Positions 1 through 44,230 of a stretch of 44,230 bases of DNA are shown in pieces (the stretch's first letter is position 1; every line of letters starts with the position of its first letter). A program made the translations under genes and the position numbers. Source of the stretch: Paraspadella gotoi (Eukaryota > Animalia > Chaetognatha). Below the pieces are notes generated by a model. It did not search any database, was not told the DNA's origin, and worked only from the letters and a program-made list of their open reading frames with translations. The stretch is taken from contig JBJCIZ010000560.1 of NCBI GenBank assembly GCA_051294375.1, positions 1 to 44,230 of the forward strand, in the 5' to 3' direction.

Positions 1-2
1 AT

Positions 3-239: not shown

Positions 240-600
240 ACGTAAGACCTAAATGGAAAGCAGAGTTCATGATAAGAGTTGATGGGAAAAAAGTCGCCAC
301 TCTAGGCGATACTGGGTGTACTAAAAGTTGCATTAGCGAAGAATTCTTAAGAGANNNNNNNNNNATTAAAGATCGCAGCTTCCGCCCCTTTTCCTCTAAG
401 GGCAAAGCTATTAATGGAACTCGTGTTCTTACAGTTGGTATAGTTAATNNNNNNNNNNGAATAGACAATACTTACCTTAGAATGAACTGTAGAGTAGTCA
501 AAGGCTTAGTCCAGCCTATTATTCTAGGCTGGGACTTTTTCTGTAAATACTCAGCATCATTGTGCCCTTCTGAAGGACGACTCAGGTTTCTTGGAAACCA
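240..600 (+). CDS. pol: Retropepsin-type aspartic protease domain of pol
   Basis: Catalytic D-T-G in VATLGDTGCTKSCISEEF and the C-terminal IILGWDF motif typical of retroelement proteases. Confidence 0.93.
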
Positions 601-3600: not shown

Positions 3601-5072
3601 CACTTGAAGTCGATCTGCAATCTCAAATCAGACTACAAGTACATCATAGTGTTCCGCTTTACTGCACCGCACTAACTCTTAACGTCGCTCAATGTTGAAG
3701 GAAGAGCAAAACTCCGACTCTATATAAATGAACTCCCTTACCAAACGTCCCTCCTCAACCAGTATTCGTCGGCATACGTCTTGCGACCAGATCATTTGCC
3801 TTATGTCGAATCTGGATCTGTCACAACACTCACATATTCCCAATTGCAAAAAATGATATGCGTATCTTCCTTCTCATTTCCTTGTCTCTCGCTCTTCTTT
3901 GGAGCATCTATATACCATCATCCTCCTTTTCTGTCTCCTCAATTATCGCATTGGTGGCGAAGTTAAAGTTAAAACACGGGAACGCTCTTCTGAACGAGTA
4001 TGTCCAAAAATATGCGAAAAGAAGGTGGAACAAGTTAAAAGAAGAAGCCTTCATCAAAAGAGAAAGGAAGAGAAACAAAAGAAGGAGAGTACTACAATAG
4101 AAAGTGCGTAAAGACTCTCACTCTCTGTGCTATATGTTTTTGTTGATTAGTAGGGGTGTATTTCTGTAATATATAGTCACTCTCCTATATGACACATGTG
4201 CCCGCTACAATGTCATACACTTTTTCGCCTTATGGCCAAATCGCGCGCCAATGAGATCCCGTTGCAATTGTTGTCGACCAAAATTCACCCCGAGGGATTT
4301 TTCTCCTGGCCGAAACTGCGTGGGGGGGGGGGTGTTTAAGTAGGGCGGGGTTGCGCGGAGTGGAACGTCGTGCGTAAGACGCGCGTCTGACCCCAACGAG
4401 GTTTTATTTCCACGTCCGGAGGTTACTTTGTGCCTTCCTTCGATTTTGGACTGAGGCACTGGACGAGTTCTTGCTAAAATTCTATATTGTCCCATTAATA
4501 CCACTTACTACTAACCGTCTTTTACCCACTACGTGAAGGGGCCCATTGCGATTGGGCCACCTTGCGCCGGGGTCATTTCGCGGTGATCTTTTTTGAACTC
4601 CGAATCCGGAAGAAACTTTGGCGGCCCGGGAAAAGAGACGAATAGGCGTCGTCTTTGTCCGGACGAGAAAAAAAGATGGGCGAGGTCGCATTTCTTGCAG
4701 CTAGCGCCGGTCGGGCAAGCCCGCCCAGCACGCGGGCTTGTGCAAGAAAGAGCTCCCTTAAGCGGGGAGGTTTTCGCTCGGAAAATGGGGCGGCGCCCCC
4801 CGCAAAAGGTTGCCAGCAAGAATGGCGACGATGCCACCAGCCCGACCTGAGATAACCAGACTGTTTAAGATGAGCGACCCGTCCCGGCGGTCGACCTTTT
4901 CCGCCGACAACGCCGCGAGGTCTTCGGCCCGGCGCGCAAGTGGATTTCCTCAGCGTCTCAATTGATTGCGATCAGGTGAGGGTTAATAAGGGGCTTCTTG
5001 TGGGATCTTGGATGTATCTTTGGTCATTGTGTTTTATCTTCATAGAATTGTTTCACCGCCTGTTGGCCAGAT

Positions 5073-17742: not shown

Positions 17743-18175
17743 TGTTGGGGCGATTTATGGAGAATCGCCAGTGGGCGAAGGTGGCTCACATCATTCAGAG
17801 CGGGGTTGCATCGGGTCTCCAACGACGTCCTCCAAACTGGGTCTGTTCGGGCGGCGCGGTCGACAGAAGCAACAGTCTTATAATGTAGGATCTGAGAGAA
17901 GACAGAAGCACACAATGCCATGAGGAGACGCTTGCCTAGAACCTTGTATTCTACGTATTCTGACACTTATCATTTATCGATAACACACGGTACTCATTTC
18001 ACTGTAAAGTAAAACAGATCAATAAATGATAATTAACAACACGATAAAGACAATGTTTTATATTTAAACACAGTTTATAATGTTCGTAGTGGATCGGTTC
18101 CATCTCGATTCCATCTCGATTCCATCTCGATTCCATCTCGATTCCATCGACGTCCACACGAATTTGTCTCCAACA
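17743..18175 (-). repeat. 3' LTR of copy C
   Basis: Begins TGTTGGAGAC (18175 downward) right after the PPT (18176-18191) and ends ...CCAACA at 17743. Confidence 0.92.
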
Positions 18176-18219
18176 TTCCTTACCCCTTTCTAAATTGGTC
18201 GACCCGACCAATAGGGATC

Positions 18220-21182: not shown

Positions 21183-21734
21183 GATGAGAAAAGACTTATT
21201 TGACTGTATCTAAGAAGATATTTTGAAATCAAGTTAATTAAATTGAACAGCTCAAATCTCGTTAATAAAATCACTAACAGCAAAACCTAACAAGCTATAA
21301 AGCACTGGTTTATAAGCCAAAACAAAACAAATTGAAATATATAGAAAATGAAAGAGCCTGCAGGACTTTGTTAATTTTGAATCACATTAATTATTCTATG
21401 AATCATTCGTACTTCAGCAAAAGGAAGATCATCCATTCCAAACATGCATACAAAATAAAATTCTTGTTTTATTTAGCTCACATGGCCAATGTTGTAGTTG
21501 TTCAGTGATTCGCAAATTAGCTTGGTTTTGAGCTTATGTTGTAGTGATTGGATCCAATATTGAAGAGTTTGTTGTTAAAATCATAGCTACTTTATTTCGT
21601 GGGTTTGATGCTAAATCATATCTAGTTTATTCCATTCTAAAAACTATGTCTGGAATCATGGAATATCTATGAAACTAATTATAATTACTGATTACTCCTT
21701 GTTTTTAGGAGTACTTGCTAGCAAAGGAGTTTGC

Positions 21735-23826
21735 TTAGGTTTTTGATCTGATTCTCTCGCTTTGTCTTGTTGCAATACTTTCGGAACTACCTGATTTAGG
21801 TTTCCTTTGTAACATACTTTGTACTAATGGGTGAGGGGGTGGTTGAGTCATTCTTATGGGTATTCGGTTAGATAGATTTTCTGGAGTGGTAACTCCTCCA
21901 TTCACCAGATCGTTTTCAGTGAAAGGGGAAAAGACTTCGTCAAATGATCCTGTTCGATTTCTAGAAGAATCAATAGTAATTGTTTCCTGAGAATCGAGAA
22001 TTATTGTTTCAGAAGCATTTCGAATCTTAGTCATACTGTTACGAATAATTTGGCTTGCTTCTGTAGTACTTCTAGTTTTGGATCTTGCTCTATTTCTTGT
22101 GTTAGGCGTAGAGGTAGAACGTCTTTTAGCATGAGCTAACTTACGTCTTTGGGTTTTTCTACGGGCTTCGGCGTTTTCTTCGTCTTCATTTGGGGTAGTA
22201 TAACTCACTTCCAAAAGTATAATATCAGAACCTCTGGAGGTATGGCTTCTGATGTGGGATTCGTATCTTGTTCCGGTTCTTCGGGCAGAAGTCCACGTAA
22301 CCTCGCTGTTGCAGCTTGAAGAGCTTGAACAGCATCATCAAGTTTTTCTGATGGAAGGGCATTCTCAGTCTCTGCCAATTGGATTGTACCTTCAGCAGAT
22401 GGCTCAGCTGGTGTGGGGATATCTGAGCTCTTGTTTGATGCATTAATAACAGCAAACCAACTGACTGGGATTTAGGTTCTTCCTTTGAAAGTGGGACTTT
22501 CATCAACTCATTATATTTCGCGTTAACAATTTTTAATTGTTCCCGATTTCTACGCACTTTCTTTCCAATGTTATCTTCACAAATATAGGAGGTTCCTGGG
22601 CCTCCTTTAGGATATGTGCATCTTTCTTTGACGATTAATGGGCCACGCCATCTTGGCTCAAGCTTATTACGCCTTTCATCTGGGATACGTTCATACACTC
22701 TATCTCCAACTTCAAGGTGAGAGCCTTTAGCTTTTCTATTATGATACTCTTCTTCTTTTGTTCTTCTTTTCTTCTCTTTTGAAGATGCTTCTTCCTTAAC
22801 TAGTTCTACCTTCTTTCGCATATTTTGGACATACTCGTTTAGAGTTCTATGTTTAACTTTAACTTCGCCACCAATAGATAATTGTGGCAAAGGAGGTGGT
22901 CTTCCAAAGAAGAGTAAGAAAGGTGTCATATCATTTTTCGCAATTGATGTAGTATTATAGGTCCATTCGACATAAGGCAAATGATCTGTCCAAGACTTGC
23001 CATACTGTTGAAGGCGTTTGGTAAGATCTTTTATGAGAGTTCGGTTTTGTCTCTCAACATTGCCTTGAGATTGTGGTCGATATGCGACACTTGTACTTTT
23101 CTTGTGCCGAGGACCCTACATGTAGCGTCCATCACCTCAGAGACAAATTCTCCACCATTATCTGATGTCAAGCGTTTAGGCGGGCCTGCGAAGCAGACTA
23201 GATTCTCGAACGCTTTCGCAATGCCAATTGAATTTTTTTGTTTTTAAGTTTGTACAATTTGATATATCCAGAAAACACATCTTTGAATACCAAAACGTGT
23301 TTGAAGTTTCCAGGGGCAACTGGCAGTTGCACCAAATCGCAGATCACGTGGTCAAACACGTTATCGGCAATTATAGGTTGTAACATTGTTTTGACCTTTG
23401 TTTTGCGGTTCTCGTAATTTGTCACAAATTGCACAATTTCTGGTAAATTCTGAAATCATCGGCCAATAGTGGGCCAGATTGCATATCGTTTTATTTTATC
23501 TTGCATCCTGGTATTGCTTGGATGTCCAGACATCATAGAACCATGAGAATCCTGAAGAACTTCTTGTACAAGGCTGTCGGGTAAATACAGCCTGCAGCAC
23601 AGAGAATGGATACCTTTATTGAAGCCTTTGCGGTACAAAGCACCTCTCGAGCATGATGAATCTGTTAAAATTTCTCAAAAACCATCTCAGGAAATGATTT
23701 TGGTGGTCTTCTCTCATCCTGACGAATTCCATAACTTCAGATATGATAGAATCGGCTTCTTGCTTTTGCTTTAGGCGAGAGCTTTCAGCATTAAGCGTGA
23801 CGGCATTGGATTCATCTATCGCATCA
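21735..23826 (-). CDS. pol: pol C-terminal part: integrase (HHCC, DDE core, GPY/F-like region) and low-complexity tail
   Basis: WTDHLPYVEWTYNTT, TPFLLFFGR, LEVGDRVY, KLEPRWRGP are typical Gypsy integrase motifs; the tail ends RQSERIRSKT. Confidence 0.92.
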
Positions 23827-25833
23827 GGCCCGCCTAAACGCTTGACATCAGATAATGGTGGAGAATTTGTCTCTGAGGTGATGGACGCTACATGTAGGGT
23901 CCTCGGCACAAAGAAAAGTACAAGTGTCGCATATCGACCACAATCTCAAGGCAATGTTGTTGAGAGACAAAACCGAACTCTCATAAAAGATCTTACCAAA
24001 CGCCTTCAACAGTATGGCAAGTCTTGGACAGATCATTTGCCTTATGTCGAATGGACCTATAATACTACATCAATTGCGAAAATGATATGACACCTTTCTT
24101 ACTCTTCTTTGGAAGACCACCTCCTTTGCCACAATTATCTATTGGTGGCGAAGTTAAAGTTAAACATAGAACTCTAAACGAGTATGTCCAAAATATGCGA
24201 AAGAAGGTAGAACTAGTTAAGGAAGAAGCATCTTCAAAAGAGAAGAAAAGAAGAACAAAAGAAGAAGAGTATCATAATAGAAAAGCTAAAGGCTCTCACC
24301 TTGAAGTTGGAGATAGAGTGTATGAACGTATCCCAGATGAAAGGCGTATAAAAGCTTGAGCCAAGATGGCGTGGCCCATTAATCGTCAAAGAAAGATGCA
24401 CATATCCTAAAGGAGGCCCAGGAACCTCCTATATTTGTGAAGATAACATTGGAAAGAAAGTGCGTAGAAATCGGGAACAATTAAAAATTGTTAACGCGAA
24501 ATATAATGAGTTGATGAAAGTCCCACTTTCAAAGGAAGAACCTAAATCCCAGTCAGTTGGTTTGCTGTTATTAATGCATCAAACAAGAGCTCAGATATCC
24601 CCACACCAGCTGAGCCATCTGCTGAAGGTACAATCCAATTGGCAGAGACTGAGAATGCCCTTCCATCAGAAAACCTTGATGATGCTGTTCAAGCTCTTCA
24701 AGCTGCAACAGCGAGGTTACGTGGACTTCTGCCCGAAGAACCGGAACAAGATACGAATCCCACATCAGAAGCCATACCTCCAGAGGATTCTGATATTATA
24801 CTTTTGGAAGTGAGTTATACTACCCCAAATGAAGACGAAGAAAACGCCGAAGCCCGTAGAAAAACCCAAAGACGTAAGTTAGCTCATGCTAAAAGACGTT
24901 CTACCTCTACGCCTAACACAAGAAATAGAGCAAGATCCAAAACTAGAAGTACTACAGAAGCAAGCCAAATTATTCGTAACAGTATGACTAAGATTCGAAA
25001 TGCTTCTGAAACAATAATTCTCGATTCTCAGGAAACAATTACTATTGATTCTTCTAGAAATCGAACAGGATCATTTGACGAAGTCTTTCCCCTTTCACTG
25101 AAAACGATCTGGTGAATGGAGGAGTTACCACTCCAGAAAATCTATCTAACCGAATACCCATAAGAATGACTCAACCACCCCCTCACCCATTAGTACAAAG
25201 TATGTTACAAAGGAAACCTAAATCAGGTAGTTCCGAAAGTATTGCAACAAGACAAAGCGAGAGAATCAGATCAAAAACCTAAGCAAACTCCTTTGCTAGC
25301 AAGTACTCCTAAAAACAAGGAGTAATCAGTAATTAGTAATTAGTTTCATAGATATTCCAGGATTCCAGACATAGTTTTTAGAATGGAATAAACTAGTTAT
25401 GATTTAGCATCAAACCCACGAAATAAAGTAGCTATGATTTTACAACAAACTCTTCAATATTGGATCCAATCACTACAACATAAGCTCAAAACCAAGCTAA
25501 TTTGCGAATCACTGAACAACTACAACATTGGCCATGTGAGCTAAATAAAACAAGAATTTTATTTTGTATGCATGTTTGGAATGGATGATCTTCCTTTTGC
25601 TGAAGTACGAATGATTCATAGAATAATTAATGTGATCTCAAATTAACAAAGTCCTGCAGGCTCTTTCATTTTCTATATATTTCAATTTGTTTTGTTTTGG
25701 CTTATAAACCAGTGCTTTATAGCTTGTTAGGTTTTGCTGTTAGTGATTTTATAACGAGATTTGAGCTGTTCAATTTAATTAACTTGATTTCAAAATATCT
25801 TCTTAGATACAGTCAAATAAGTCTTTTCTCATC

Positions 25834-28792
25834 ATGGGCAAAAGAAAAACTATAACTCAGTGTTTATATGCCCTGGCGAAGAAGCGCCAAAAGAGGACAA
25901 CCTGCCAAGGTTTCCTCCATCTCTCCCACCTCAGACGGCCTGCGGAGTCGATCAGCCTGTGCAAAGCCTCTCGAGATCTCCTCTTGCACGCCCGCCAGCT
26001 TCGACTTCAGCACCACCGTCTGTGCCGGACATCGAGGTCAGAGAAATAAAGTTGCCAGATGACATAAACCTCAAGGAGCTGCTTGTCAACATCAAGACAT
26101 TCCTCAATTCAAAAGCAAAGTTCCTGCAACAATCACGACGGATAAATCGCGCTACCAGGAATATGAATTTAACGAAATGTGTAAATGCCTTAAACTCGAA
26201 ACTATATCGTCGACAAAGATTATTCATGTCCGTAGCCATTCCGACGATAGGGAGGCAGGCGCGTACTACGATACGCTCCTTGCCAATCCAACTCGTCATA
26301 TTCTTATGGGATTCGACATAGAGGGAAGTGTCGCGACGGTTCAATTGTCTGCAGAAGCTGGAAAGAAAGAGTCAACGTAGTGTACCACTAAAATCCTCGG
26401 TTGCTGAACATTGCCTGCGCCAAGGCATACCCACAAACTTACGAAGAATGCTTCAACACGAAGAAGTAATTTTCACTGGCAAGAATGTGAAAGAAGATTT
26501 GATAGAGTTATGTGGTACACTCTCCATCAATGCAGACAAAGTTAAATACTTGGAAGTGACTGATCTGTATGGTTTGTGCCAAAGTCTTGCCGAAGGCCCT
26601 CGTCATTTGTACCATTTTGTCCATTCAGGACATGGGTAAGAGAGTTTCAGGTCTCCCTTGCGTATTTCTTTAATTTCGCCTTCCAAGATCGTTTCTTGGA
26701 TAAAAAGAATTTTCATCGGGACCATACCTCAGATTTCGCGGAAGAGCGAGCTCCACTTTCGCCGCAACAGCTCGCATATGCTGCATTAGATGCTCGGGCA
26801 TCAAGGGATGCCGTCCAGCGCTTACTTGGACTGCTCGGACTCAAACCAGATGCCCTTTCGCGATCGATTGGCGATGTGGCTTTCCCAATCATTGGCATGC
26901 TCGACGTTGTGAAAGCTTATGTGGAAGACAAACCGCGCAACTTGTTCGAAAAGCCGGCGTTGCCGCGCTTAAAAGATGCGAATCGTTCTTCAGAATGCGC
27001 GTGACCACTGCTGAGAGGGAGGAGTATGTGCGTCGATTAAGGAAGCAAATCGCAGTGATAAAATTGAAAGAAATTCGAACAGGAAAGAGAATCGAGATCG
27101 TGTACGTCGAGGATGACCCTACCGACGGTTTAGGTCAATATCCTGCCCTTTCTTCGCCCGTGATGTTTCAAGTCGACGAACTCGACAATTCTGACATGAC
27201 GCCTCCCCAGCCAAGGTTAAAAAGTCGCTGGTCTCGGATTCGATCATTCGTCTTCCGCCACGGAGGTTTGCGAGATTCCTGCTCCTACCTCAACATCTGT
27301 GCCAGCTAAAACGTCGAAAAATAAGTCTAGAGTTGTAAAAACTGGATCAACCGTACGTAAGTCCTCGTCCCGCGCTACGCGTGAGGCAAGGTCTTCACAT
27401 CCGGACCGCGATTTTGCAGCAGCGCAAGTTCTTAGTCAAATGCATCTCGCCGACTTTCGTCAGTATTTGAACAAAAGACAAGCGCCCACTGCTTCCGAAA
27501 GGATTAAAGCATGGATCGGGATTTCTCTCTCATATGCCTATGAGAAAACAAAACAACCGGCGAAAAGCTTACGCCCTTGCTCGCATCATGATGAGTTTCT
27601 TCTCAGCCGGACGACTCAACGATTTTATCGGGGCTATACTCGACGCCAAGATCTTCGGTGCGAGTCACCTCCATTCTCTCGTCCAGATGAAGTATTTCTC
27701 TTGCTCTGCGATGGTACTTCTGGATTACTTCCTCAATGGCGATGGACGCACGAATATGCTGAAAGCTGCTGCGCTACAGTTCGACCAGGCAGAGATTTCT
27801 TCAGTTATTGGTTTTGTATCCCTCTCTTACAAGCGAAAAGATCAAATCATACTGAAATTACGGTCAACAGGTTTCTATCCGAAGTTGAAAGACATTAGCG
27901 ACTTTGAAGACAAATTCTCTAATTACAGAGTGGGCCGTTTTATTCGAACTTGTTCTGAAGCGGCAAAACTGCATTGTCTCGCCATTACTACCACATTATT
28001 TGCAAGTCACGTACCGACATTCTCATGGAGTCGTTTCTGCGTGGAGAGATTGAAGAGAACGATATGTACTTTCCGTGCAAAGCCATCGCGATTGGTGAAA
28101 ATCATCTGTTCGAAGCTTGCGTGTCGCGCGTGGCTGAGTTACACTCGCCGCTCGCTTCTCTTCTTTTACGATTGCGAGGTTCTCCCGTGAGAACTTTCCT
28201 CCAGCAAAATTCGACGCGTTTTCCCCATCATGTGCCAGCCCTTCAATAAAGATCTTCATGATCTTCCTATCAGGCTGCGAGGGAAGAGAACGGACGGTTT
28301 GCTCGTTGTGGAAAAGGACGAACTAAAACGCTTTCAGAAGGCCCTGTCTAGATCAAAAGATTTCGCAATTATCTATCATCGTCCTTTGCCTGGATTAGAG
28401 AAGACAGATGTGGATTTCTTATCAATCCTTTGCGACTGGCAAATCTTTCATTTTGCCCCAGGCAAAAATCGCGACATCTGCAAAGGAATGATTAAGACGC
28501 TAGACGCCTATCCAGATTGTCGCCTCCTTACCTTCAAGAGAGTTCGCTCTTCGATTTCTTCAGACGCGAATTCTCATGGTCCCCTACCAACTGGGTAGAT
28601 GCGGAGACCATTTGCACTGAACGTGGATGGGAGGCAACAATGGAAACAATCTCAAGAAAGATCACCGGAGGTTCCTTTTGTCCGCGTGGTTTAAATTTCC
28701 ATGGAAACGCGCGGCCCTCATCAATCGCCCTCTTCCATCGCTCGATCACTACACTGCTTGTCCAGAGATTTTGCGTCCTTTATTCGTCATAG
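25834..28792 (+). CDS. Exonuclease cargo ORF, copy D (frameshifted)
   Basis: Fragments match the 989-aa ORF from MGKRKTITQC to (R/L)YSS-stop. Confidence 0.9.
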
Positions 28793-28836
28793 GATCCCTA
28801 TTGGTCGGGTCGACCAATTTAGAAAGGGGTAAGGAA

Positions 28837-29259
28837 TGTTGGAGACAAATTCGTGTGGACGTCGATGGAATCGAGATGGAATCGAGATGAGTCGAGATGG
28901 AACCGATCCACTACGAACATTATAAACTGTGTTTAAATATAAAACATTGTCTTTATCGTGTTGTTAATTATCATTTATTGATCTGTTTTACTTTACAGTG
29001 AAATGAGTACCGTGTTGTATCGATAAATGATAAGTGTCAGAATACGTAGAATACAAGGTTCTAGGCAAGCGTCTCCTCATGGCATTGTGTGCTTCTGTCT
29101 TCTCTCAGATCCATACATTATAAGACGTTGCTTCTGTCGACCGCGCCGCCCGAACAGACCCAGTTTGGAGGACGTCGTTGGAGACCCGATGCAACCCCGC
29201 TCTGAATGATGTGAGCCACCTTCGCCCACTGGCGATTCTCCATAAATCCGCCTCCAACA
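28837..29259 (+). repeat. 3' LTR of copy D (423 bp)
   Basis: TG...CA ends with an 8-bp terminal inverted repeat TGTTGGAG/CTCCAACA; preceded by the PPT AGAAAGGGGTAAGGAA. Confidence 0.95.
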
Positions 29260-31207
29260 GTAGGGCCAAAAAATGGTAATGACAGCGAGAGAAGTAATGG
29301 AGAAAGAGGAAGAGAAAAATATAAAGTAAGAGAAGAAAAGAGGTGAAGAAAAATAATCAGGANNNNNNNNNNNNNNNNNNNNNNNNNGGCAAGTCTTGGA
29401 CAGATCATTTGCCTTATGTCGAATGGACCTATAATACTACATCAATTGCGAAAAATGATATGACACCTTTCTTACTCTTCTTTGGAAGACCACCTCCTTT
29501 GCCACAATTATCTATTGGTGGCGAAGTTAAAGTTAAACATAGAACTCTAAACGAGTATGTCCAAAATATGCGAAAGAAGTAGAACTAGTTAAGGAAGAAG
29601 CATCTTCAAAAGAGAAGAAAAGAAGAACAAAAGAAGAAGAGTATCATAATAGAAAAGCTAAAGGCTCTCACCTTGAAGTTGGAGATAGAGTGTATGAACG
29701 TATCCCAGATGAAAGGCGTAATAAGCTTGAGCCAAGATGGCGTGGCCCATTAATCGTCAAAGAAAGATGCACATATCCTAAAGGAGGCCCAGGAACCTCC
29801 TATATTTGTGAAGATAACATTGGAAAGAAAGTGCGTAGAAATCGGGAACAATTAAAAATTGTTAACGCGAAATATAATGAGTTGATGAAAGTCCCACTTT
29901 CAAAGGAAGAACCTAAATCCCAGTCAGTTGGTTTGCTGTTATTAATGCATCAAACAAGAGCTCAGATATCCCCACACCAGCTGAGCCATCTGCTGAAGGT
30001 ACAATCCAATTGGCAGAGACTGAGAATGCCCTTCCATCAGAAAACCTTGATGATGCTGTTCAAGCTCTTCAAGCTGCAACGCGAGGTTACGTGGACTTCT
30101 GCCCGAAGAACCGGAACAAGATACAAATCCCACATCAGAAGCCATACCTCCAGAGGATTCTGATATTATACTTTTGGAAGTGAGTTATACTACCCCAAAT
30201 GAAGACGAAGAAAACGCCGAAGCCCGTAGAAAAACCCAAAGACGTAAGTTAGCTCATGCTAAAAGACGTTCTACCTCTACGCCTAACACAAGAAATAGAG
30301 CAAGATCCAAAACTAGAAGTACTACAGAAGCAAGCAAATTATTCGTAACAGTATGACTAAGATTCGAAATGCTTCTGAAACAATAATTCTCGATTCTCAG
30401 AAACAATTACTATTGATTCTTCTAGAAATCGAACAGGATCATTTGACGAAGTCTTTTCCCCTTTCACTGAAAACGATCTGGTGAATGGAGGAGTTACCAC
30501 TCCAGAAAATCTAATCTAACCGAATACCCATAAGAATGACTCAACCACCCCCTCACCCATTAGTACAAAGTATGTTACAAAGGAAACCTAAATCAGGTAG
30601 TTCCGAAAGTATTGCAACAAGACAAAGCGAGAGAATCAGATCAAAAACCTAAGCAAACTCCTTTGCTAGCAAGTACTCCTAAAAACAAGGAGTAATCAGT
30701 AATTAGTAATTAGTTTCATAGATATTCCATGATTCCAGACATAGTTTTTAGAATGGAATAAACTAGATATGATTTAGCATCAAACCCACGAAATAAAGTA
30801 GCTATGATTTTAACAACAAACTCTTCAATATTGGATCCAATCACTACAACATAAGCTCAAAAACCAGATAATTTGCGAATCACTGAACAACTACAACATT
30901 GGCCATGTGAGCTAAATAAAACAAGAATTTTATTTTTGTATGCATGTTTGGAATGGATGATCTTCCTTTTGCTGAAGTACGAATGATTCATAGAATAATT
31001 AATGTGATTCAAAATTAACAAAGTCCTGCAGGCCTCTTCATTTTCTATATATTTCAATTTTGTTTTGTTTTGGCTTATAAACCAGTGCTTTATAGCTTGT
31101 TAGGTTTTGCTGTTAGTGATTTTATTAACGAGATTTGAGCTGTTCAATTTAATTAACTTGATTTCAAAATATCTTCTTAGATACAGTCAAATAAGTCTTT
31201 TCTCATC

Positions 31208-34159
31208 ATGGGCAAAAGAAAAACTATAACTCAGTGTTTATATGCCCTGGCGAAGAAGCGCCAAAAGAGGACAACCTGCCAAGGTTTCCTCCATCTCTCA
31301 CCTCAGACGGCCTGCGGAGTCGATCAGCCTGTGCAAAGCCTCTCGAGATCTCCTCTTGCACGCCCGCCAGCTTCGACTTCAGCACCACCGTCTGTGCCGG
31401 ACATCGAGGTCAGAGAAAATAAAGTTGCCAGATGACATAAACCTCAGAGCTGCTGTCAACATCAACGACATTCCTCAATTCAAAAGCAAAGTTCCTGCAA
31501 CAATCACGACGGATAAATCGCGCTACCAGGAAATATGAATTTAACGAAATGTGTAAATGCCTTAAACTCGAAACTATATCGTCGACAAAGATTATTCATG
31601 TCCGTAGCCATTCCGACGATAGGGAGGCAGGCGCGTACTACGATACGCTCCTTGCCAATCCAACTCGTCATATTCTTATGGGATTCGACATAGAGGGAAG
31701 TGTCGCGACGGTTCAATTGTCTGCAGAAGCTGGAAAGGAAGAAGTCAACGTAGTGTACCAGCTAAAATCCTCGGTTGCTGAACATTGCCTGCGCCAAGGC
31801 ATACCCACAAACTTACGAAGAATGCTTCAACACGAAAGAGTAATTTTCACTGGCAAGAATGTGAAAGAAGATTTGATAGAGTTATGTGGTACACTCTCCA
31901 TCAATGCAGACAAAGTTAAATACTTGGAAGTGACTGATCTGTATGGTTTGTGCCAAAGTCTTGCCGAAGGCCCTCGTCATTTGTACCATTTTGTCAATTC
32001 AGGACAATGGGTAAGAGAGTTTCAGTCTCCCTTGCGTATTTCTTTAATTTCGCCTTCCAAGATCGTTTCTTGGATAAAAGAAGTTTTCATCGGGACCATA
32101 CCTCAGATTTCGCGGAAGAGCGAGCCCCACTTTCGCCGCAACAGCTCGCATATGCTGCATTAGATGCTCGCGCATCAAGGGATGCCGTCCAGCGCTTACT
32201 TGGACTGCTCGGACTCAAACCAGATGCCCTTTCGCGATCGATTGGCGATGTGGCTTTCCCAATCATTGGCATGCTCGACGTTGTGAAAGCTTATGTGGAA
32301 GACAAACCGCGCAACTTGTTCGAAAAGCCGGCGTTGCCGCGCTTAAAAGATGCGAATCGTTCTTCAAGATCGCCGTGACCACTGCTGAGAGGGAGGAGTA
32401 TGTGCGTCGATTAAGGAAGCAAATCGCAGTGATAAAATTGAAAGAAATTCGAACAGGAAAGAGAATCGAGATCGTGTACGTCGAGGATGACCCTACCGAC
32501 GGTTTAGGTCAATATCCTGCCCTTTCTTCGCCCGTGATGTTTCAAGTCGACGATTCGACAATTCTGACATGACGCCTCCCCCAGCCAAGGTTAAAAAGTC
32601 GCTGGTCTCGGATTCGATTCATTCGTCTTCCGCCACGGAGGTTTGCGAGATTCCTGCTCCTACCTCAACATCTGTGCCAGCTAAAACGTCGAAAAATAAG
32701 TCTAGAGTTGTAAAAACTGGATCAACCGTACGTAAGTCCTCGTCCCGCGCTACGCGTGAGGCAAGGTCTTCACATCCGGACCGCGATTTTGCAGCAGCGC
32801 AAGTTCTTAGTCAAATGCATCTCGCCGACTTTCGTCAGTATTTGAACAAAAGACAAGCGCCCACTGCTTCCGAAAGGATTAAAGCATGGATCGGGATTCT
32901 CTCTCATATGCCTATGAGAAAACAAACAACCGGCGAAAAGCTACGCCCTTGCTCGCATACATGATGAGTTTCTTCTCAGCCGGACGACTCAACGATTTTA
33001 TCGGGGCTATACTCGACGCCAAGATCTTCGGTGCGAGTCACCTCCATTTTCTCGTCCAGATGAAGTATTTCTCTTGCTCTGCGATGGTACTTCTGGATTA
33101 CTTCCTCAATGCGGATGGACGCACGAATATGCTGAAGCTGCTGCGCTACAGTTCGACCAGGCAGAGATTTCTTCAGTTATTGGTTTTGTATCCCTCTCTT
33201 ACAAGCGAAAAGATCAAATCATACTGAAATTACGGTCAACAGGTTTCTATCCGAAGTTGAAAGACATTAGCGACTTTGAAGACAAATTCTCTAATTACAG
33301 AGTGGGCCGTTTTATTCGAACTTGTTCTGAGCGGCAAAATGCCATTGTCTCGCCATTACTACCACATTATTTGCAAGTCACGTACCGACATCTCATGGAG
33401 TCGTTCTTGCGTGGAGAGATTGAAGAGAACGATATGTACTTCTCGTGCAAAGCCATCGCGATTGGTGAAAATCATCTGTTCGAAGCTTGCGTGTCGGCGT
33501 GGCTGAGTTACACTCGCCGCTCGCTTCTCTTCTTTTACGATTGCGAGGTTCTCCCCGTGAGAACTTTCCTCCAGCAAAATTCGACGCGTTTTCCATCATG
33601 TGCCAGCCCTTCAATAAAGATCTTCATGATCTTCCTATCAGGCTGCGAGGGAAGAGAACGGACGGTTTGCTCGTTGTGGAAAAGGACGAACTAAAACGCT
33701 TTCAGAAGGCCCTGTCTAGATCAAAAGATTTCGCAATTATCTATCATCGTCCTTTGCCTGGATTAGAGAAGACAGATGTGGATTTCTTATCAATCCTTTG
33801 CGACTGGCAAATCTTTCATTTTGCCCCAGGCAAAAATCGCGACATCTGCAAAGGAATGATTAAGACGCTAGACGCCTATCCAGATTGTCGCCTCCTTACC
33901 TTCAAGAGAGTTCCGCTCTTCGATTTCTTCAGACGCGATTTCTCATGGTCCCCTACCAACTGGGTAGATGCGGAGACCATTTGCACTGAACGTGGATGGG
34001 AGGCAACAATGGAAACAATTCAAGAAAGATCACCGGAGGTTCCTTTTGTCCGCGTGGTTTAAATTTCCATGGAAACGCGCGGCCCTCATCAATCGCCCTC
34101 TTCCATCGCTCGATCAACTACTGCTTGTCCAGAGATTTTGCGTCCGTTATTCGTCATAG
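31208..34159 (+). CDS. Exonuclease cargo ORF, copy E (frameshifted)
   Basis: Fragments 31549-32163, 31950-32378, 32569-32964, 33074-33694 and 33487-34062 match the 989-aa ORF. Confidence 0.9.
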
Positions 34160-34202
34160 ATCCCTATTGGTCGGGTCGACCAATTTAGAAAGGGGTAAGG
34201 AA

Positions 34203-34626
34203 TGTTGGAGACAAATTTGGGTCGTGGAAGTGAATCGATGGAATCGAGATGGAATCGAGATGGAACCGATCCACTACGAACATTATAAACTGTGTTTAAA
34301 TATAAAACATTGTTTTTTATCGTGTTGTTAATTATCATTTATTGATCTGTTTTACTTTACAGTGAAATGAGTACCGTGTTGTTATCGATAAATGATAAGT
34401 GTCAGAATACGTAGAATACAGAGTTCTAGGCAAGCGTCTCCTCATGGCATTGTGTGCTTCTGTCTTCTCTCAGATCCATACATTATAAGACTGTTGCTTC
34501 TGTCGACCCGCGCCCCGAACAGACCCAGTTTGGAGGACGTCGTTGGAGACCCGATGCAACCCGCGCTCTGAATGATGTGAGCCACCTTCGCCCACTGGCG
34601 ATTCTCCATAAATCCGCCTCCAAACA
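34203..34626 (+). repeat. 3' LTR of copy E
   Basis: TGTTGGAGAC after the PPT; ends CGCCTCCAAACA (one extra A). Confidence 0.92.
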
Positions 34627-35299: not shown

Positions 35300-37026
35300 N
35301 NNNNNNNNNNNNNNNNNNNNNNNNATTATCTATTGGTGGCGAAGTTAAAGTTAAACATAGAACTCTAAACGAGTATGTCCAAAATATGCGAAAGAAGGTA
35401 GAACTAGTTAAGGAAGAAGCATCTTCAAAAGAGAAGAAAAGAAGAACAAAAGAAGAAGAGTATCNNNNNNNNNNNNNNNNAGGCTCTCACCTTGAAGTTG
35501 GAGATAGAGTGTATGAACGTATCCCAGATGAAAGGCGTAATAAGCTTGAGCCAAGNNNNNNNNNNCCATTAATCGTCAAAGAAAGATGCACATATCCTAA
35601 AGGAGGCCCAGGAACCTCCTATATTTGTGAAGATAACATTGGAAAGAANNNNNNNNNNAATCGGGAACAATTAAAAATTGTTAACGCGAAATATAATGAG
35701 TTGATGAAAGTCCCACTTTCAAAGGAAGAACCTAAATTCCAGTAGTTGGTTTGCTGTTATTAATGCATCAAACAAGAGCTCAGATATCCCCACACCAGCT
35801 GAGCCATCTGCTGAAGGTACAATCCAATTGGCAGAGAGAGAGAATGCCCTTCCATCAGAAAACCTTGATGATGCTGTTCAAGCTCTTCAAGCTGCAACAG
35901 CGAGGTTACGTGGACTTCTGCCCGAAGAACCGGAACAAGATACGAATCCCACATCAGAAGCCATACCTCCAGAGGATTCTGATATTATACTTTTGGAAGT
36001 GAGTTATACTACCCCAAATGAAGACGAAGAAAACGCCGAAGCCCGTAGAAAACCCAAAGACGTAAGTTAGCTCATGCTAAAAGACGTTCTACCTCTACGC
36101 CTAACACAAGAAATAGAGCAAGATCCAAAACTAGAAGTACTACAGAAGCAAGCCAAATTATTCGTAACAGTATGACTAAGATTCGAAATNNNNNNNNNNC
36201 AATAATTCTCGATTCTCAGGAAACAATTACTATTGATTCTTCTAGAAATCGAACAGGATCATTTGACGAAGTCTTTTCCCCTTTCACTGAAAACGATCTG
36301 GTGAATGGAGGAGTTTACCACTCCAGAAAATCTATCTAAACCGAATACCCATAAGAATGACTCAACCACCCCCTCACCCATTAGTACAAAGTATGTTACA
36401 AAGGAAACCTAAATCAGGTAGTTCCGAAAGTATTGCAACAAGACAAAGCGAGAGAATCAGATCAAAACCTAAGCAAACTCCTTTGCTAGCAAGTACTCCT
36501 AAAAACAAGGAGTAATCAGTAATTAGTAATTAGTTTCATAGATATTCCATGATTCCAGACATAGTTTTTAGAATGGAATAAACTAGATATGATTTAGCAT
36601 CAAACCCACGAAATAAAGTAGCTATGATTTTAACAACAAACTCTTCAATATTGGATCCAATCACTACAACATAAGCTCAAAACCAAGCTAATTTGCGAAT
36701 CACTGAACAACTACAACATTGGCCATGTGAGCTAAATAAAACAAGAATTTTATTCTTGTATGCATGTTTGGAATGGATGATCTTCCTTTTGCTGAAGTAC
36801 GAATGATTCATAGAATAATTAATGTGATTCAAAATTAACAAAGTCCTGCAGGCTCTTTCATTTTCTATATATTTCTATTTGTTTTGTTTTGGCTTATAAA
36901 CCAGTGCTTTATAGCTTGTTAGGTTTTGCTGTTAGTGATTTTATTAACGAGATTTGAGCTGTTCAATTTAATTAACTTGATTTCAAAATATCTTCTTAGA
37001 TACAGTCAAATAAGTCTTTTCTCATC

Positions 37027-39996
37027 ATGGGCAAAAGAAAAACTATAACTCAGTGTTTATATGCCCTGGCCGAAGAAGCGCCAAAAGAGGACAACCTGCC
37101 AAGGTTTCCTCCATCTCTCCCACCTCAGACGGCCTGCGGAGTCGATCAGCCTGTGCAAAGCCTCTCGAGATCTCCTCTTGCACGCCCGCCAGCTTCGACT
37201 TCAGCACCACCGTCTGTGCCGGACATCGAGGTCAGAGAAATAAAGTTGCCAGATGACATAAACCTCAAGGAGCTGCTTGTCAACATCAACGACATTCCTC
37301 AATTCAAAAGCAAAGTTCCTGCAACAATCACGACGGATAAATCGCGCTACCAGGAATATGAATTTAACGAAATGTGTAAATGCCTTAAACTCGAAACTAT
37401 ATCGTCGACAAAGATTATTCATGTCCGTAGCCATTCCGACGATAGGGAGGCAGGCGCGTACTACGATACGCTCCTTGCCAATCCAACTCGTCATATTCTT
37501 ATGGGATTCGACATAGAGGGAAGTGTCGCGACGGTTCAATTGTCTGCAGAAGCTGGAAAGGAAGAAGTCAACGTAGTGTACCAGCTAAAATCCTCGGTTG
37601 CTGAACATTGCCTGCGCCAAGGCATACCCACAAACTTACGAAGAATGCTTCAACACGAAAGAGTAATTTTCACTGGCAAGAATGTGAAAGAAGATTTGAT
37701 AGAGTTATGTGGTACACTCTCCATCAATGCAGACAAAGTTAAATACTTGGAAGTGACTGATCTGTATGGTTTGTGCCAAAGTCTTGCCGAAGGCCCTCGT
37801 CATTTGTACCATTTTGTCCATTCAGGACAATGGGTAAGAGAGTTTCAGGTCTCCCTTGCGTATTTCTTTAATTTCGCCTTCCAAGATCGTTTCTTGGATA
37901 AAAGAAGTTTTCATCGGGACCATACCTCAGATTTCGCGGAAGAGCGAGCCCCACTTTCGCCGCAACAGCTCGCATATGCTGCATTAGATGCTCGCGCATC
38001 AAGGGATGCCGTCCAGCGCTTACTTGGACTGCTCGGACTCAAACCAGATGCCCTTTCGCGATCGATTGGCGATGTGGCTTTCCCAATCATTGGCATGCTC
38101 GACGTTGTGAAAGCTTATGTGGAAGACAAACCGCGCAACTTGTTCGAAAAGCACGGCGTTGCCGCGCTTAAAAGATGCGAATCGTTCTTCAGAATGCGCG
38201 TGACCACTGCTGAGAGGGAGGAGTATGTGCGTCGATTAAGGAAGCAAATCGCAGTGATAAAATTGAAAGAAATTCGAACAGGAAAGAGAATCGAGATCGT
38301 GTACGTCGAGGATGACCCTACCGACGGTTTAGGTCAATATCCTGCCCTTTCTTCGCCCGTGATGTTTCAAGTCGACGAGCTCGACAATTCTGACATGACG
38401 CCTCCCCCAGCCAAGGTTAAAAAGTCGCTGGTCTCGGATTCGATTCATTCGTCTTCCGCCACGGAGGTTTGCGAGATTCCTGCTCCTACCTCAACATCTG
38501 TGCCAGCTAAAACGTCGAAAAATAAGTCTAGAGTTGTAAAAACTGGATCAACCGTACGTAAGTCCTCGTCCCGCGCTACGCGTGAGGCAAGGTCTTCACA
38601 TCCGGACCGCGATTTTGCAGCAGCGCAAGTTCTTAGTCAAATGCATCTCGCCGACTTTCGTCAGTATTTGAACAAAAGACAAGCGCCCACTGCTTCCGAA
38701 AGGATTAAANNNNNNNNNNGGATTCTCTCTCATATGCCTATGAGAAAACAAAACAACCGGCGAAAAGCTTACGCCCTTGCTCGCATCATGATGAGTTTCT
38801 TCTCAGCCGGACGACTCAACGATTTTATCGGGGCTATACTCGACGCCAAGATCTTCGGTGCGAGTCACCTCCATTCTCTCGTCCAGATGAAGTATTTCTC
38901 TTGCTCTGCGATGGTACTTCTGGATTACTTCCTCAATGGCGATGGACGCACGAATATGCTGAAAGCTGCTGCGCTACAGTTCGACCAGGCAGAGATTTCT
39001 TCAGTTATTGGTTTTGTATCCCTCTCTTACAAGCGAAAAGATCAAATCTTACTGAAATTACGGTCAACAGGTTTCTATCCGAAGTTGAAAGACATTAGCG
39101 ACTTTGAAGACAAATTCTCTAATTACAGAGTGGGCCGTTTTATTCGAACTTGTTCTGAAGCGGCAAAACTGCCATTGTCTCGCCATTACTACCACATTAT
39201 TTGCAAGTCACGTACCGACATTCTCATGGAGTCGTTCTTGCGTGGAGAGATTGAAGAGAACGATATGTACTTCTCGTGCAAAGCCATCGCGATTGGTGAA
39301 AATCATCTGTTCGAAGCTTGCGTGTCGCGCGTGGCTGAGTTACACTCGCCGCTCGCTTCTCTTCTTTTACGATTGCGAGGTTCTCCCCGTGAGAACTTTC
39401 CTCCAGCAAAATTCGACGCGTTTTCCCCATCATGTGCCAGCCCCTTCAATAAAGATCTTCATGATCTTCCTATCAGGCTGCGAGGGAAGAGAACGGACGG
39501 TTTGCTCGTTGTGGAAAAGGACGAACTAAAACGCTTTCAGAAGGCCCTGTCTAGATCAAAAGATTTCGCAATTATCTATCATCGTCCTTTGCCTGGATTA
39601 GAGAAGACAGATGTGGATTTCTTATCAATCCTTTGCGACTGGCAAATCTTTCATTTTGCCCCAGGCAAAAATCGCGACATCTGCAAAGGAATGATTAAGA
39701 CGCTAGACGCCTATCCAGATTGTCGCCTCCTTACCTTCAAGAGAGTTCCGCTCTTCGATTTCTTCAGACGCGAATTCTCATGGTCCCCTACCAACTGGGT
39801 AGATGCGGAGACCATTTGCACTGAACGTGGATGGGAGGCAACAATGGAAACAATCTCAAGAAAGATCACCGGAGGTTCCTTTTGTCCGCGTGGTTTAAAT
39901 TTCCATGGAAACGCGCGGCCCTCATCAATCGCCCTCTTCCATCGCTCGATCACTACACTGCTTGTCCAGAGATTTTGCGTCCGTTATTCGTCATAG
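37027..39996 (+). CDS. 989-aa retrotransposon-borne protein with a DEDDy (WRN/RNase D/EXD/MUT-7 class) 3'-5' exonuclease domain and a probable inactive second exonuclease-like domain
   Basis: ExoI ILMGFDIEGS (D162,E164), VQLSA strand, IPTNLRRMLQHERVIFTGKNVKEDL (ExoII D223), YLEVTDL, SLAYFF...FLDK, TSDF...PLSPQQLAYAALDA (ExoIII Y317,D321). Intronless and present in four copies. No obvious signal peptide or TM anchor. Confidence 0.92.
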   Translation: MGKRKTITQCLYALAEEAPKEDNLPRFPPSLPPQTACGVDQPVQSLSRSPLARPPASTSAPPSVPDIEVREIKLPDDINLKELLVNINDIPQFKSKVPATITTDKSRYQEYEFNEMCKCLKLETISSTKIIHVRSHSDDREAGAYYDTLLANPTRHILMGFDIEGSVATVQLSAEAGKEEVNVVYQLKSSVAEHCLRQGIPTNLRRMLQHERVIFTGKNVKEDLIELCGTLSINADKVKYLEVTDLYGLCQSLAEGPRHLYHFVHSGQWVREFQVSLAYFFNFAFQDRFLDKRSFHRDHTSDFAEERAPLSPQQLAYAALDARASRDAVQRLLGLLGLKPDALSRSIGDVAFPIIGMLDVVKAYVEDKPRNLFEKHGVAALKRCESFFRMRVTTAEREEYVRRLRKQIAVIKLKEIRTGKRIEIVYVEDDPTDGLGQYPALSSPVMFQVDELDNSDMTPPPAKVKKSLVSDSIHSSSATEVCEIPAPTSTSVPAKTSKNKSRVVKTGSTVRKSSSRATREARSSHPDRDFAAAQVLSQMHLADFRQYLNKRQAPTASERIKXXXXILSHMPMRKQNNRRKAYALARIMMSFFSAGRLNDFIGAILDAKIFGASHLHSLVQMKYFSCSAMVLLDYFLNGDGRTNMLKAAALQFDQAEISSVIGFVSLSYKRKDQILLKLRSTGFYPKLKDISDFEDKFSNYRVGRFIRTCSEAAKLPLSRHYYHIICKSRTDILMESFLRGEIEENDMYFSCKAIAIGENHLFEACVSRVAELHSPLASLLLRLRGSPRENFPPAKFDAFSPSCASPFNKDLHDLPIRLRGKRTDGLLVVEKDELKRFQKALSRSKDFAIIYHRPLPGLEKTDVDFLSILCDWQIFHFAPGKNRDICKGMIKTLDAYPDCRLLTFKRVPLFDFFRREFSWSPTNWVDAETICTERGWEATMETISRKITGGSFCPRGLNFHGNARPSSIALFHRSITTLLVQRFCVRYSS

Positions 39997-40024: not shown

Positions 40025-40040
40025 AGAAAGGGGTAAGGAA
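40025..40040 (+). promoter_or_regulatory. Polypurine tract AGAAAGGGGTAAGGAA
   Basis: Directly abuts the LTR TG in copies C, D, E and F. Confidence 0.9.
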
Positions 40041-40080
40041 TGTTGGAGACAAATTCGTGTGGACGTCGATGGAATCGAGA

Positions 40081-40862
<782 letters not shown>

Positions 40863-43820: not shown

Positions 43821-44230
43821 TGTTGGAGGCGGATTTATGGAGAATCGCCAGTGGGCGAAGGTGGCTCACATCATTCAGAGCGGGGTTGCATCGGGTCTCC
43901 AACGACGTCCTCCAAACTGGGTCTGTTCGGGCGGCGCGGTCGACAGAAGCAACAGTCTTATAATGTATGGATCTGAGAGAAGACAGAAGCACACAATGCC
44001 ATGAGGAGACGCTTGCCTAGAACCTTTATTCTACGTATTCTGACACTTATCATTTATCGATAACAACACGGTACTCATTTCACTGTAAAGTAAAACAGAT
44101 CAATAAATGATATTAAACAACACGATAAAGACAATGTTTTATATTTAAACACAGTTTATAATGTTCGTAGTGGATCGGTTTCCATCTCGATTCCATCTCG
44201 ATTCCATCTCGATTCCATCTCGATTCCATC
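43821..44230 (-). repeat. LTR copy G (3' or solo LTR), running off the window
   Basis: Ends ...CGCCTCCAACA at 43821; matches the other LTRs up to the 11-mer array at the window end. Confidence 0.95.

What the first reader, a model, noticed from the sequence alone, without database searches (positions are those of the whole stretch)
37027..39996. Gypsy LTR retrotransposon carrying a DEDDy 3'-5' exonuclease gene in the env position
Seen: a 989-codon intronless sense ORF lies between the pol stop and the PPT/3' LTR in four near-identical copies, so it is an integral part of the element. Residues ~130-335 (about 37410-38030) contain all catalytic residues of a DnaQ-superfamily DEDDy nuclease in the right order: GFD162IE164, KED223L, Y317AALD321A. 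They also contain the WRN/EXD/RNase D-type context motifs (VQL, IPxxLxxxL, SDF..PLSxxQLxYAALDA). Established: extra Gypsy ORFs at this position are usually env or of unknown function, and this nuclease class includes small-RNA pathway enzymes (MUT-7, Nibbler, EXD1, plant WEX). I do not know of a described Gypsy lineage with such a cargo, but I cannot search. Inference: the element may encode its own nuclease, to degrade piRNA/siRNA (anti-silencing) or to proofread or trim cDNA ends.
Basis: partly seen in the sequence, partly recalled or inferred. Interest (0 to 1): 0.93.

Follow-up and report, generated by a model that had tools for sequence, protein, structure and literature searches.

The report
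Retrotransposon carrying a double-exonuclease gene
A young Gypsy-type jumping gene carries, where retroviruses keep their envelope gene, a 989-residue protein with one intact-looking 3'-5' exonuclease domain and a second, predicted dead one, which together likely trim RNA ends to help the element escape silencing; a nuclease in this position was already described in rotifer elements.

Summary
The 989-codon ORF (37027-39996) lies between the pol end and the PPT/LTR. Short-read contigs cross it without indels in all four runs laid (two as single contigs), and a run shown to be RNA covers it. In the window only copy 4 is intact; copies 1-3 carry error-type indels. The DEDDy residues are near-invariant in about 45 divergent, unnamed relatives, and the family profile's best PDB match is WRN exonuclease.

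The idea is not new: Rodriguez et al. 2017 (PMC5408684) described DEDDy ORF3s in rotifer Juno/Vesta LTR elements, and this scan noted Rrp6-like and dead DEDDh ORF3s in other genomes (unchecked).

That domain has no catalytic set but an invariant C-H-C-H, and the long relatives share it. I found no description of this live-plus-dead layout in 9 literature searches. Best guess: an element-specific RNA trimmer that blunts small-RNA silencing (about 45%). Activity, substrate and the relatives' genomic context are untested.

The parts
37027..39996 (+). ORF3, 989 aa, intronless, in the env position (copy 4, the only open copy in the window)
   Evidence: gap-free in short-read contigs
37339..38061 (+). 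EXO1, aa ~105-345: DEDDy 3'-5' exonuclease; D162 (37510), E164 (37516), D223 (37693), Y317 (37975), D321 (37987)
38062..38322 (+). Conserved extension after EXO1 (aa 346-432), probably helical
   Evidence: BLAST matches to relatives run to aa ~430; structure not reliably modelled
38323..38706 (+). Low-complexity P/S/T-rich linker (aa 433-560), variable in length among relatives
   Evidence: 31% P+S+T; not aligned in most relatives
38749..39381 (+). All-helical domain (aa ~575-785); no fold match listed
   Evidence: AF2 model helices 10-219; barely tested
39433..39993 (+). EXO2, aa ~803-989: DEDD-fold domain without the catalytic acidic set; invariant C803, H812, C953, H972 (possible Zn site, untested)
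40025..40040 (+). Polypurine tract
   Evidence: same tract before the LTRs of copies 1-3
40041..40080 (+). Truncated 3' LTR of copy 4; junction to flank not bridged by listed short-read contigs
35325..36515 (+). 3' end of pol (integrase C-terminus and low-complexity tail) of copy 4; exact stop uncertain because of indels
36516..37026 (+). AT-rich spacer (about 31% GC) with TATA-like words (36866, 36895) and candidate acceptors (36999, 37005); expression route unknown
17743..23821 (-). Copy 1: integrase (H2C2, rve, C-terminal motif), ORF3 with 12 indels, PPT, full LTR 18175-17743
23825..29259 (+). Copy 2: integrase 3' part, ORF3 with 15 indels, PPT, full LTR 28837-29259
29388..34626 (+). Copy 3: integrase 3' part, ORF3 with 24 indels, PPT, full LTR 34203-34626
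43821..44230 (-). Fifth LTR (runs off the window), next to an SLC23-like host gene; absent at this site in X8 and X9 contigs
1..4121 (+). Very noisy copy of the same pol: protease, RT, RNase H region, integrase (77% to copy 1 over 2842-4121)
14657..17389 (+). Second noisy protease-RT-RNase H copy

Best explanation
A young, multi-copy Gypsy-type LTR retrotransposon carries a third gene for a 989-residue protein whose first domain is likely a working metal-dependent 3'-5' exonuclease and whose last domain is predicted to be a dead copy of the same fold, and the pair likely protects the element from small-RNA silencing. Shown: the gene's place in the element, its open frame, its cover in an RNA assembly, and strict conservation of the DEDDy residues. 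Predicted: the two folds. Inferred mechanism: the helical domain and dead EXO2 bind a defined RNA or RNP (the element's own transcript, its slicer fragments, or a PIWI/AGO complex), as the Nibbler helical NTD and the non-catalytic exonuclease-homology domain of Egalitarian do. They tether EXO1 through the flexible linker. EXO1 then chews back the 3' ends of cleavage fragments or small-RNA precursors, so fewer silencing RNAs are made against this family.
For: Catalytic residues are conserved across relatives only about 20-35% identical to the query: D162 42 of 45, E164 43 of 45, D223 36 D + 7 E of 46, Y317 33 of 38, D321 32 of 37, against a median of 0.135 for the 28 other D/E positions. The profile's best PDB hit is WRN exonuclease (E=7e-4 with the cellular WRN-like hit removed; E=1e-8 with it), then MUT-7/Nibbler. 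The Atlas gives 0.95 to PF01612 clusters. The C-half model has pLDDT 85.5 and Z 18.2 to RNase D (rmsd 2.5, 165 aligned), 17.9 to WRN and 17.1 to Nibbler EXO, tied in part. The C-half is shared by 7 clusters; 6 of them built the profile and P0066 is independent at E=3e-93. The gene is separate from pol and has no TM segment, so it likely acts in trans rather than as an envelope. Nibbler's helical-plus-EXO layout and RNA role come from PMC11347159 passages; Egalitarian's ExoHD binds RNA without its catalytic residues (PMC13186709 passages). Known TE anti-silencing factors are family-specific (PMC6719617 passages), which fits a binding module that confers specificity.
Against: No activity, substrate or partner has been tested. 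The nearest sequence relative, WRN exonuclease, acts on DNA (established knowledge), which fits cDNA processing equally well. The helical domain has no listed match to the Nibbler NTD (inconclusive). Rodriguez et al. found no clear link between DEDDy ORF3 and copy number, and their small RNAs mapped to all ORF types. Mature piRNAs are 2'-O-methylated and resist such nucleases (recalled). Related sequences that share the pol end, spacer patches and LTR start but not ORF3 at 88% identity are as deep or deeper in some runs, so they may lack or have replaced the gene. The genomic context of the relatives could not be fetched, so their link to LTRs is inferred. How ORF3 is translated is unknown: no splice joint into it was listed.
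Confidence: 0.45

Rival explanations
1. Replication helper: EXO1 trims the 3' ends of the element's own nucleic acids (non-templated or mismatched cDNA ends before integration, genomic RNA or primer ends), and the dead C-half clamps the substrate or docks the protein on the particle or pre-integration complex.
For: Closest named relative is the DNA-active WRN exonuclease. The same idea is offered for rotifer ORF3s and for DEDDy domains in Dada transposases (PMC3706591 passage). All 8 complete relatives printed end in a basic, NLS-like tail.
Against: The gene is not fused to pol and no particle-targeting feature was seen; most Gypsy elements replicate without it (established). ORF3 itself lacks the basic C-terminal tail.
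Confidence: 0.3
2. Decoy or adaptor: the important part is the dead C-half, which mimics a host MUT-7/Nibbler, EXD1 or Egalitarian module to sequester a partner or route the element's RNA into the germline; EXO1 has a secondary housekeeping role.
For: Helical-plus-EXO order as in Nibbler. Invariant non-catalytic C-H-C-H (7 of 7). Egalitarian and Exd1 are among the fold hits.
Against: Those hits reflect the shared DEDD fold and do not rank above RNase D or WRN. EXO1's catalytic residues are the most conserved positions in its domain. P0019 lacks the helical domain yet is kept.
Confidence: 0.17
3. Passenger or artefact: a recently transduced host gene or an assembly chimera with no use to the element.
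For: The window is an error-rich, gap-filled assembly. Context of the relatives is unknown. Only 4 variant sites lie in the ORF (2 synonymous, 2 not), too few for dN/dS.
Against: Single short-read contigs span spacer, ORF and PPT (X6 also the LTR start) without gaps. The gene is intronless in a host with short introns. About 50 deeply diverged, unnamed clusters keep the catalytic set and include uninterrupted 1,100-1,250-codon frames on 4-8 kb contigs.
Confidence: 0.08

Closest known systems
DEDDy ORF3 of bdelloid rotifer LTR retrotransposons Juno1/2 and Vesta2/5, shared with Athena/Terminon elements (Rodriguez, Kenefick, Arkhipova 2017, PMC5408684; read parts 2-3 of 5 and passages, figures and supplement not seen)
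   Same: Separate sense ORF after pol in a PR-RT-RH-IN LTR element; DEDDy-type 3'-5' exonuclease with intact catalytic residues; no TM or env features; function untested; the same hypotheses were offered.
   Different: There the domain is called RNase D-like with DEDD changed to DEED, and the elements have dUTPase in pol. Here EXO1 is DEDD and WRN-like, and the protein adds a helical domain and a second, dead DEDD fold, which the text I read does not mention.
WRN exonuclease / EXD-type DEDDy domains (PF01612; PDB 2e6l, 2fbt)
   Same: Best PDB match of the EXO1 family profile, in register at ExoI, ExoII and ExoIII.
   Different: Remote match (E=7e-4 without the cellular WRN-like row); no helicase; insertions between motifs; element-borne and intronless.
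MUT-7/Nibbler/EXD3 small-RNA trimmers (PMC11347159, passages)
   Same: Helical domain followed by a DEDDy EXO fold, as in the C-half (Z 17.1 to 7jw6); weak sequence hit for EXO1 (E=0.11).
   Different: The EXO after the helical domain is dead here; no MUT7-C hit; the helical domain was not matched to the Nibbler NTD; an extra active-looking EXO sits upstream.
Non-catalytic exonuclease-fold RNA binders: Egalitarian ExoHD (PMC13186709, passages), EXD1 and Maelstrom (named in PMC5408684 discussion)
   Same: DEDD fold used without catalysis; Maelstrom has a Cys/His zinc motif, and EXO2 has an invariant C-H-C-H.
   Different: Host proteins; no sequence relationship shown; the Zn geometry in EXO2 was not checked.
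DEDDy domain in Dada DNA transposases (PMC3706591, passages)
   Same: Transposon-encoded DEDDy nuclease with intact catalytic residues.
   Different: Inserted within a DDE transposase of a DNA transposon, not a separate retroelement gene.

Membership tests
Ty3/Gypsy LTR retrotransposon | LTRs with TG...CA ends | tested here: met
   About 423-433 nt LTRs, TG start and CA end, in copies 1-3
Ty3/Gypsy LTR retrotransposon | Polypurine tract just before the 3' LTR | tested here: met
   Found in 4 of 4 copies
Ty3/Gypsy LTR retrotransposon | pol order protease-RT-RNase H-integrase with Gypsy-type domains | tested here: met
   gag-asp_proteas E=4e-5, Integrase_H2C2 E=3e-8, rve E=3e-4; RVT_1 only E=0.055 and RT_RNaseH_2 E=0.035 in frameshifted copies; order seen in 1-4121, which is continuous with the same integrase
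Ty3/Gypsy LTR retrotransposon | gag, 5' LTR with primer-binding site, target-site duplication | tested here: inconclusive
   No 5' end in the window; a loose end beyond the LTR 3' end in three runs looks like a primer-binding site by eye; no TSD could be checked
Ty3/Gypsy LTR retrotransposon | RT phylogeny placing it in a named clade | not tested
   RT copies too frameshifted; no reference set
DEDDy 3'-5' exonuclease (EXO1) | ExoI DxE, ExoII D, ExoIII YxxxD in order | tested here: met
   in register with WRN
DEDDy 3'-5' exonuclease (EXO1) | DnaQ/RNase H-like fold | tested here: inconclusive
   Single-sequence model pLDDT 36, best Z 4.2; fold supported only by profile and language-model hits
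DEDDy 3'-5' exonuclease (EXO1) | Metal-dependent 3'-5' exonuclease activity | not testable with these tools
   needs an in vitro assay
DEDDy 3'-5' exonuclease (EXO2) | DnaQ/RNase H-like fold | tested here: met
   Z 18.2, rmsd 2.5, 165 aligned to RNase D; model range 242-424
DEDDy 3'-5' exonuclease (EXO2) | Catalytic acidic set | tested here: not met
   No conserved D/E in the ExoI-, II- or III-equivalent segments across 7 rows (equivalence set by secondary structure, by eye); single rows keep an isolated D or E
Juno/Vesta DEDDy ORF3 (bdelloid) | DEDDy ORF downstream of pol in an LTR element | tested here: met
Juno/Vesta DEDDy ORF3 (bdelloid) | DEED variant motif | tested here: not met
   D223 here; E in 7 of 46 aligned rows; paper text
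Juno/Vesta DEDDy ORF3 (bdelloid) | dUTPase between protease and RT | tested here: inconclusive
   No Pfam hit in 6 frames of two copies, but both are heavily frameshifted
Juno/Vesta DEDDy ORF3 (bdelloid) | Sequence clade with rotifer ORF3s | not testable with these tools
MUT-7/Nibbler/EXD3 | HEAT-like NTD before an active EXO, usually with MUT7-C | tested here: inconclusive
   Helical domain not among listed matches (list filled by the EXO domain); the adjacent EXO is dead; no MUT7-C Pfam hit
env glycoprotein | Transmembrane anchor | tested here: not met
   Highest 19-residue Kyte-Doolittle mean 1.46

The most novel reading that the evidence does not exclude
An old, undescribed clade of Gypsy elements encodes a dedicated counter-silencing enzyme: a live WRN-type exonuclease tethered to a dead, zinc-binding Nibbler-like module that recognises the element's own RNA or the host PIWI complex and destroys piRNA/siRNA precursors. 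It would be an animal-type counterpart of plant VANC anti-silencing proteins that works by nuclease activity.
Probability: 0.3. Interest if true: 0.85.

Novelty: new variant of a known kind. Interest (0 to 1): 0.57.

Why it matters
Transposon-encoded suppressors of silencing are rare and the described ones act narrowly (PMC6719617 passages). In the papers I found, no DEDDy ORF3 had been assayed. This element offers a validated, apparently transcribed, intact gene from a young family, with about 50 divergent relatives that mark the key residues. Its two-module design separates catalysis (EXO1) from targeting (helical domain plus dead EXO2). That makes the open question of why retroelements repeatedly pick up 3'-5' exonucleases directly testable, domain by domain.

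Tried and rejected
No genome is held for this window, so genome-wide linkage and dN/dS could not be done. Word-indexed homolog searches: EXO1 region found none; A1 against longer proteins found none, so no pol fusion was seen, which is weak evidence; the C-half profile returned only 2 of its own members. No genomic loci were found for EXO1, the integrase or P0061 in metagenome or viral contigs; the alignment was too diverse for that tool. Single-sequence PDB search of EXO1 gave only chance hits. The single-sequence EXO1 model and its fold search were uninformative. Sequence and profile searches of the C-half found nothing (Pfam, PDB, Atlas); only the structure model placed it. HHalign of EXO1 against EXO2 gave P=0.026 over 27 columns, above 20 of 20 column shuffles but not significant, so internal duplication is not shown. 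Complex prediction of EXO1 with the C-half gave no verdict. No run on record as RNA was listed; X9 was shown to be RNA only by its spliced host contigs. The helical domain has no listed fold match and was not folded alone (cap reached). P0048, a cellular WRN-like protein, inflated the profile hit and was removed. Rfam found nothing. Contig depths (ORF 304 vs host 73 in X8; 59 vs 12-15 in X6) hint at a few copies, but the tool warns that they are not copy numbers. Rejected: env function (no TM), host gene with introns, pure assembly chimera.
Full report
OBSERVATION. The window holds a 989-codon ATG ORF at 37027-39996 with a 10-N stretch read as X. The other five frames have 37-54 stops. Upstream lie an integrase end and an AT-rich spacer of about 510 nt; downstream lie a polypurine tract (40025-40040) and an LTR start. 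The same unit occurs four times. Copies 1-3 end in full LTRs of 423-433 nt with TG...CA ends. These three and a fifth LTR at 43821 have four different 3' flanks, so they look like separate insertions. Integrase (H2C2 E=3e-8, rve E=3e-4) and protease (E=4e-5) hits, with weak RT and RNase H hits in two very noisy copies, give the Gypsy order. No gag or 5' LTR is present.

ASSEMBLY QUALITY. The frame is open only in copy 4. Copies 1-3 differ from it by 12, 15 and 24 mostly single-base indels but only 6-12 substitutions. Copies 3 and 4 start at 25-N gaps, and copies 1 and 2 meet at an inversion. Short-read contigs settle which is right. X6 record 15 (36670-40069) and X8 record 22 (36672-40032) match copy 4 with 0 gaps; X9 and X4 cover it in pieces with 0 gaps; no indel is listed inside the ORF (92 pieces not shown). 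The gene and its link to the PPT are therefore real, and the broken copies are probably sequencing errors. Copy 4's LTR stops after about 40 nt and no listed piece bridges that junction. Only 4 variant sites fall in the ORF, 2 synonymous and 2 not: a young family, too uniform for dN/dS. The LTR at 43821 is missing at that site in X8 and X9 contigs, which fits recent insertion or misassembly.

EXPRESSION. No run was on record as RNA. X9, however, has contigs that skip host introns with CT..AC ends (40544-40760 and 42118-42292, the latter inside an SLC23-like gene), and these joints are absent in three DNA runs. X9 covers the whole ORF at depth 16-22; the host gene is at 19.7 and the listed intron pieces at 2-3.3. 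This is one sample, strand unknown, from a multi-copy element, so it is suggestive only. One X9 contig runs unbroken from 36474 to 37949 across the spacer, and no splice joint into ORF3 is among the 7 listed (25 loose-end rows not shown). How ORF3 is translated is open.

DOMAIN 1. Direct Pfam support is weak (PF01612 E=0.0056, under cut-off), but the Atlas scores 0.95 to PF01612 clusters. A full HMMER scan found 52 proteins at E<=0.001, most 25-39% identical over the matched stretch, many with the domain at the same N-terminal place. In 28 rows (query plus the 27 of 52 with long cover) D162 and E164 are invariant, D223 is D in 23 and E in 4, and Y317 and D321 hold in 27. A wider alignment used 45 of the 52 hits plus 2 cluster members. 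It left out P0019, P0023, P0024, P0041, P0045, P0047 and P0048, and included P0065, a C-terminal fragment, by mistake. Counts there are 42 of 45, 43 of 45, 43 (D or E) of 46, 33 of 38 and 32 of 37, against a median of 0.135 for the other 28 acidic positions (highest 0.82, E305). The profile's best PDB hit is WRN exonuclease, in register at all three motifs: E=1e-8 with the cellular WRN-like P0048 included and 7e-4 without it, followed by Nibbler (E=0.11). A reliable 3D model of this domain was not obtained.

After a P/S/T-rich linker, residues 566-989 are conserved at 20-30% in the long relatives. A 13-row alignment gave an AlphaFold model with pLDDT 85.5: an all-helical domain (aa ~575-785), then an alpha/beta domain. 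Foldseek's top hits are Rrp6, Nibbler EXO, RNase D and WRN. The wide search gives Z 18.2 (rmsd 2.5, 165 aligned) to RNase D, 17.9 to WRN, 17.5 to a Pol I exonuclease and 17.1 to Nibbler EXO, so the fold is clear but the subfamily is not. The segments equivalent to ExoI-III have no conserved acidic residues in 7 rows, while C803, H812, C953 and H972 are invariant in 7 of 7 and present by eye in P0066. H972 sits about where the catalytic Tyr would be. A zinc site is an untested inference. The full C-half is found in 7 clusters, 6 of which built the profile; P0019 keeps EXO1 and most of EXO2 without the helical domain. Duplication of EXO1 is not shown. The helical domain has no listed match and was not searched alone. 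There is no TM segment.

THE RELATIVES. The 20 looked up come from ENA, JGI/IMG or Logan contigs of 0.6-14.3 kb and carry no informative name. Uninterrupted frames of 1,100-1,250 codons on contigs barely longer than the gene, spread over a deep star-like tree, are what a radiated retroelement gene would give. This is inference: no flanking DNA could be fetched, and I cannot tell whether those contigs are DNA or RNA. In this species, contigs that share the pol end, spacer patches and the PPT/LTR start but not ORF3 at 88% identity appear in all laid runs, in X8 deeper than ORF3. They are either sister families with a diverged third gene or derivatives without it.

MECHANISM. Shown: placement, frame and conservation. 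Predicted: two DEDD folds, one complete and one dead. Inferred: function. I favour a targeted RNA trimmer that blunts small-RNA silencing (0.45). The protein is separate from pol. Its C-half has the helical-plus-EXO order of Nibbler, whose NTD binds RNA and recruits it to AGO complexes (PMC11347159 passages). Exonuclease folds are used as pure RNA binders in Egalitarian (PMC13186709 passages). Known transposon anti-silencers act narrowly (PMC6719617 passages), which would need such a targeting module. A replication helper trimming cDNA or RNA ends is close behind (0.30), given the WRN affinity. A decoy or adaptor role (0.17) and a passenger (0.08) follow. Nothing here tests substrate.

COMPARISON AND NOVELTY. 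Rodriguez, Kenefick and Arkhipova 2017 (PMC5408684; parts 2-3 of 5 and passages read; figures and supplement not seen) describe RNase D-like DEDDy ORF3s, with DEDD changed to DEED, acquired at least twice by rotifer Juno and Vesta LTR elements. They raise both 3'-end processing and silencing roles. Reviews repeat this (PMC6431247, PMC5718144, PMC6338049; passages), and Dada DNA transposases carry a DEDDy domain (PMC3706591 passages). PMC5348765 was seen as a listing only, with 0 hits for 'exonuclease'. The concept is therefore known. Nine answered literature searches of an open-access library turned up no LTR ORF3 with a live and a dead exonuclease domain in tandem. Repbase, Dfam, GyDB and most subscription papers were not searched, and the rotifer paper's figures could bear on this. 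Earlier AI notes of this scan report Rrp6-like and dead DEDDh ORF3s in other genomes (unchecked); none matched this sequence or the tandem wording. Membership in the Juno/Vesta group is not shown: the DEED motif is not met, dUTPase is inconclusive and kinship is untestable here. It works like them in position and enzyme class.

VERDICT. Real, element-borne and under long-term selection; a new variant of a known kind.

Noticed in passing
window 41900-43700, minus strand: SLC23/xanthine-uracil permease host gene (PF00860, E=3e-24) with short introns, spliced in run X9; the LTR at 43821 sits beside its transcribed 5' part and is absent there in X8 and X9 contigs.
   Followed up: partly
window 36474-36927, 39319 and 40003-40069: Contigs in all laid runs share the pol end, short spacer patches and the PPT/LTR start but not ORF3 at 88% identity (joints 36503-36673, 36725-36887, 36927-39319; at least three different sequences before 40003/40005): sister families or ORF3-less derivatives.
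   Followed up: no
window 44069-44154: X9 contig with an 84-nt GT..AG skip inside the LTR on the strand antisense to the element (short side 27 nt): a possible spliced antisense LTR transcript.
   Followed up: no
protein P0019: Relative with EXO1 followed almost directly by EXO2, lacking linker and helical domain; cluster of 3 members.
   Followed up: partly
proteins P0001, P0012, P0013, P0018, P0024, P0042, P0066, P0019: All 8 end in a basic, often R/S/D-rich tail that the window's ORF3 lacks.
   Followed up: no
LTR 5' part, e.g. 28865-28905 and 44180-44230: Variable number of tandem 11-nt repeats near the LTR start; copy 4's LTR breaks off within them.
   Followed up: no
window 40155-40400: (GA)n followed by (TC)n forming an inverted repeat, uncovered in all four laid runs; probably a gap-fill artefact.
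   Followed up: partly
window ~600-1400 and ~15020-15900: About 250-codon protease-to-RT spacer, long enough for a dUTPase-like domain; no Pfam hit in these frameshifted copies.
   Followed up: partly
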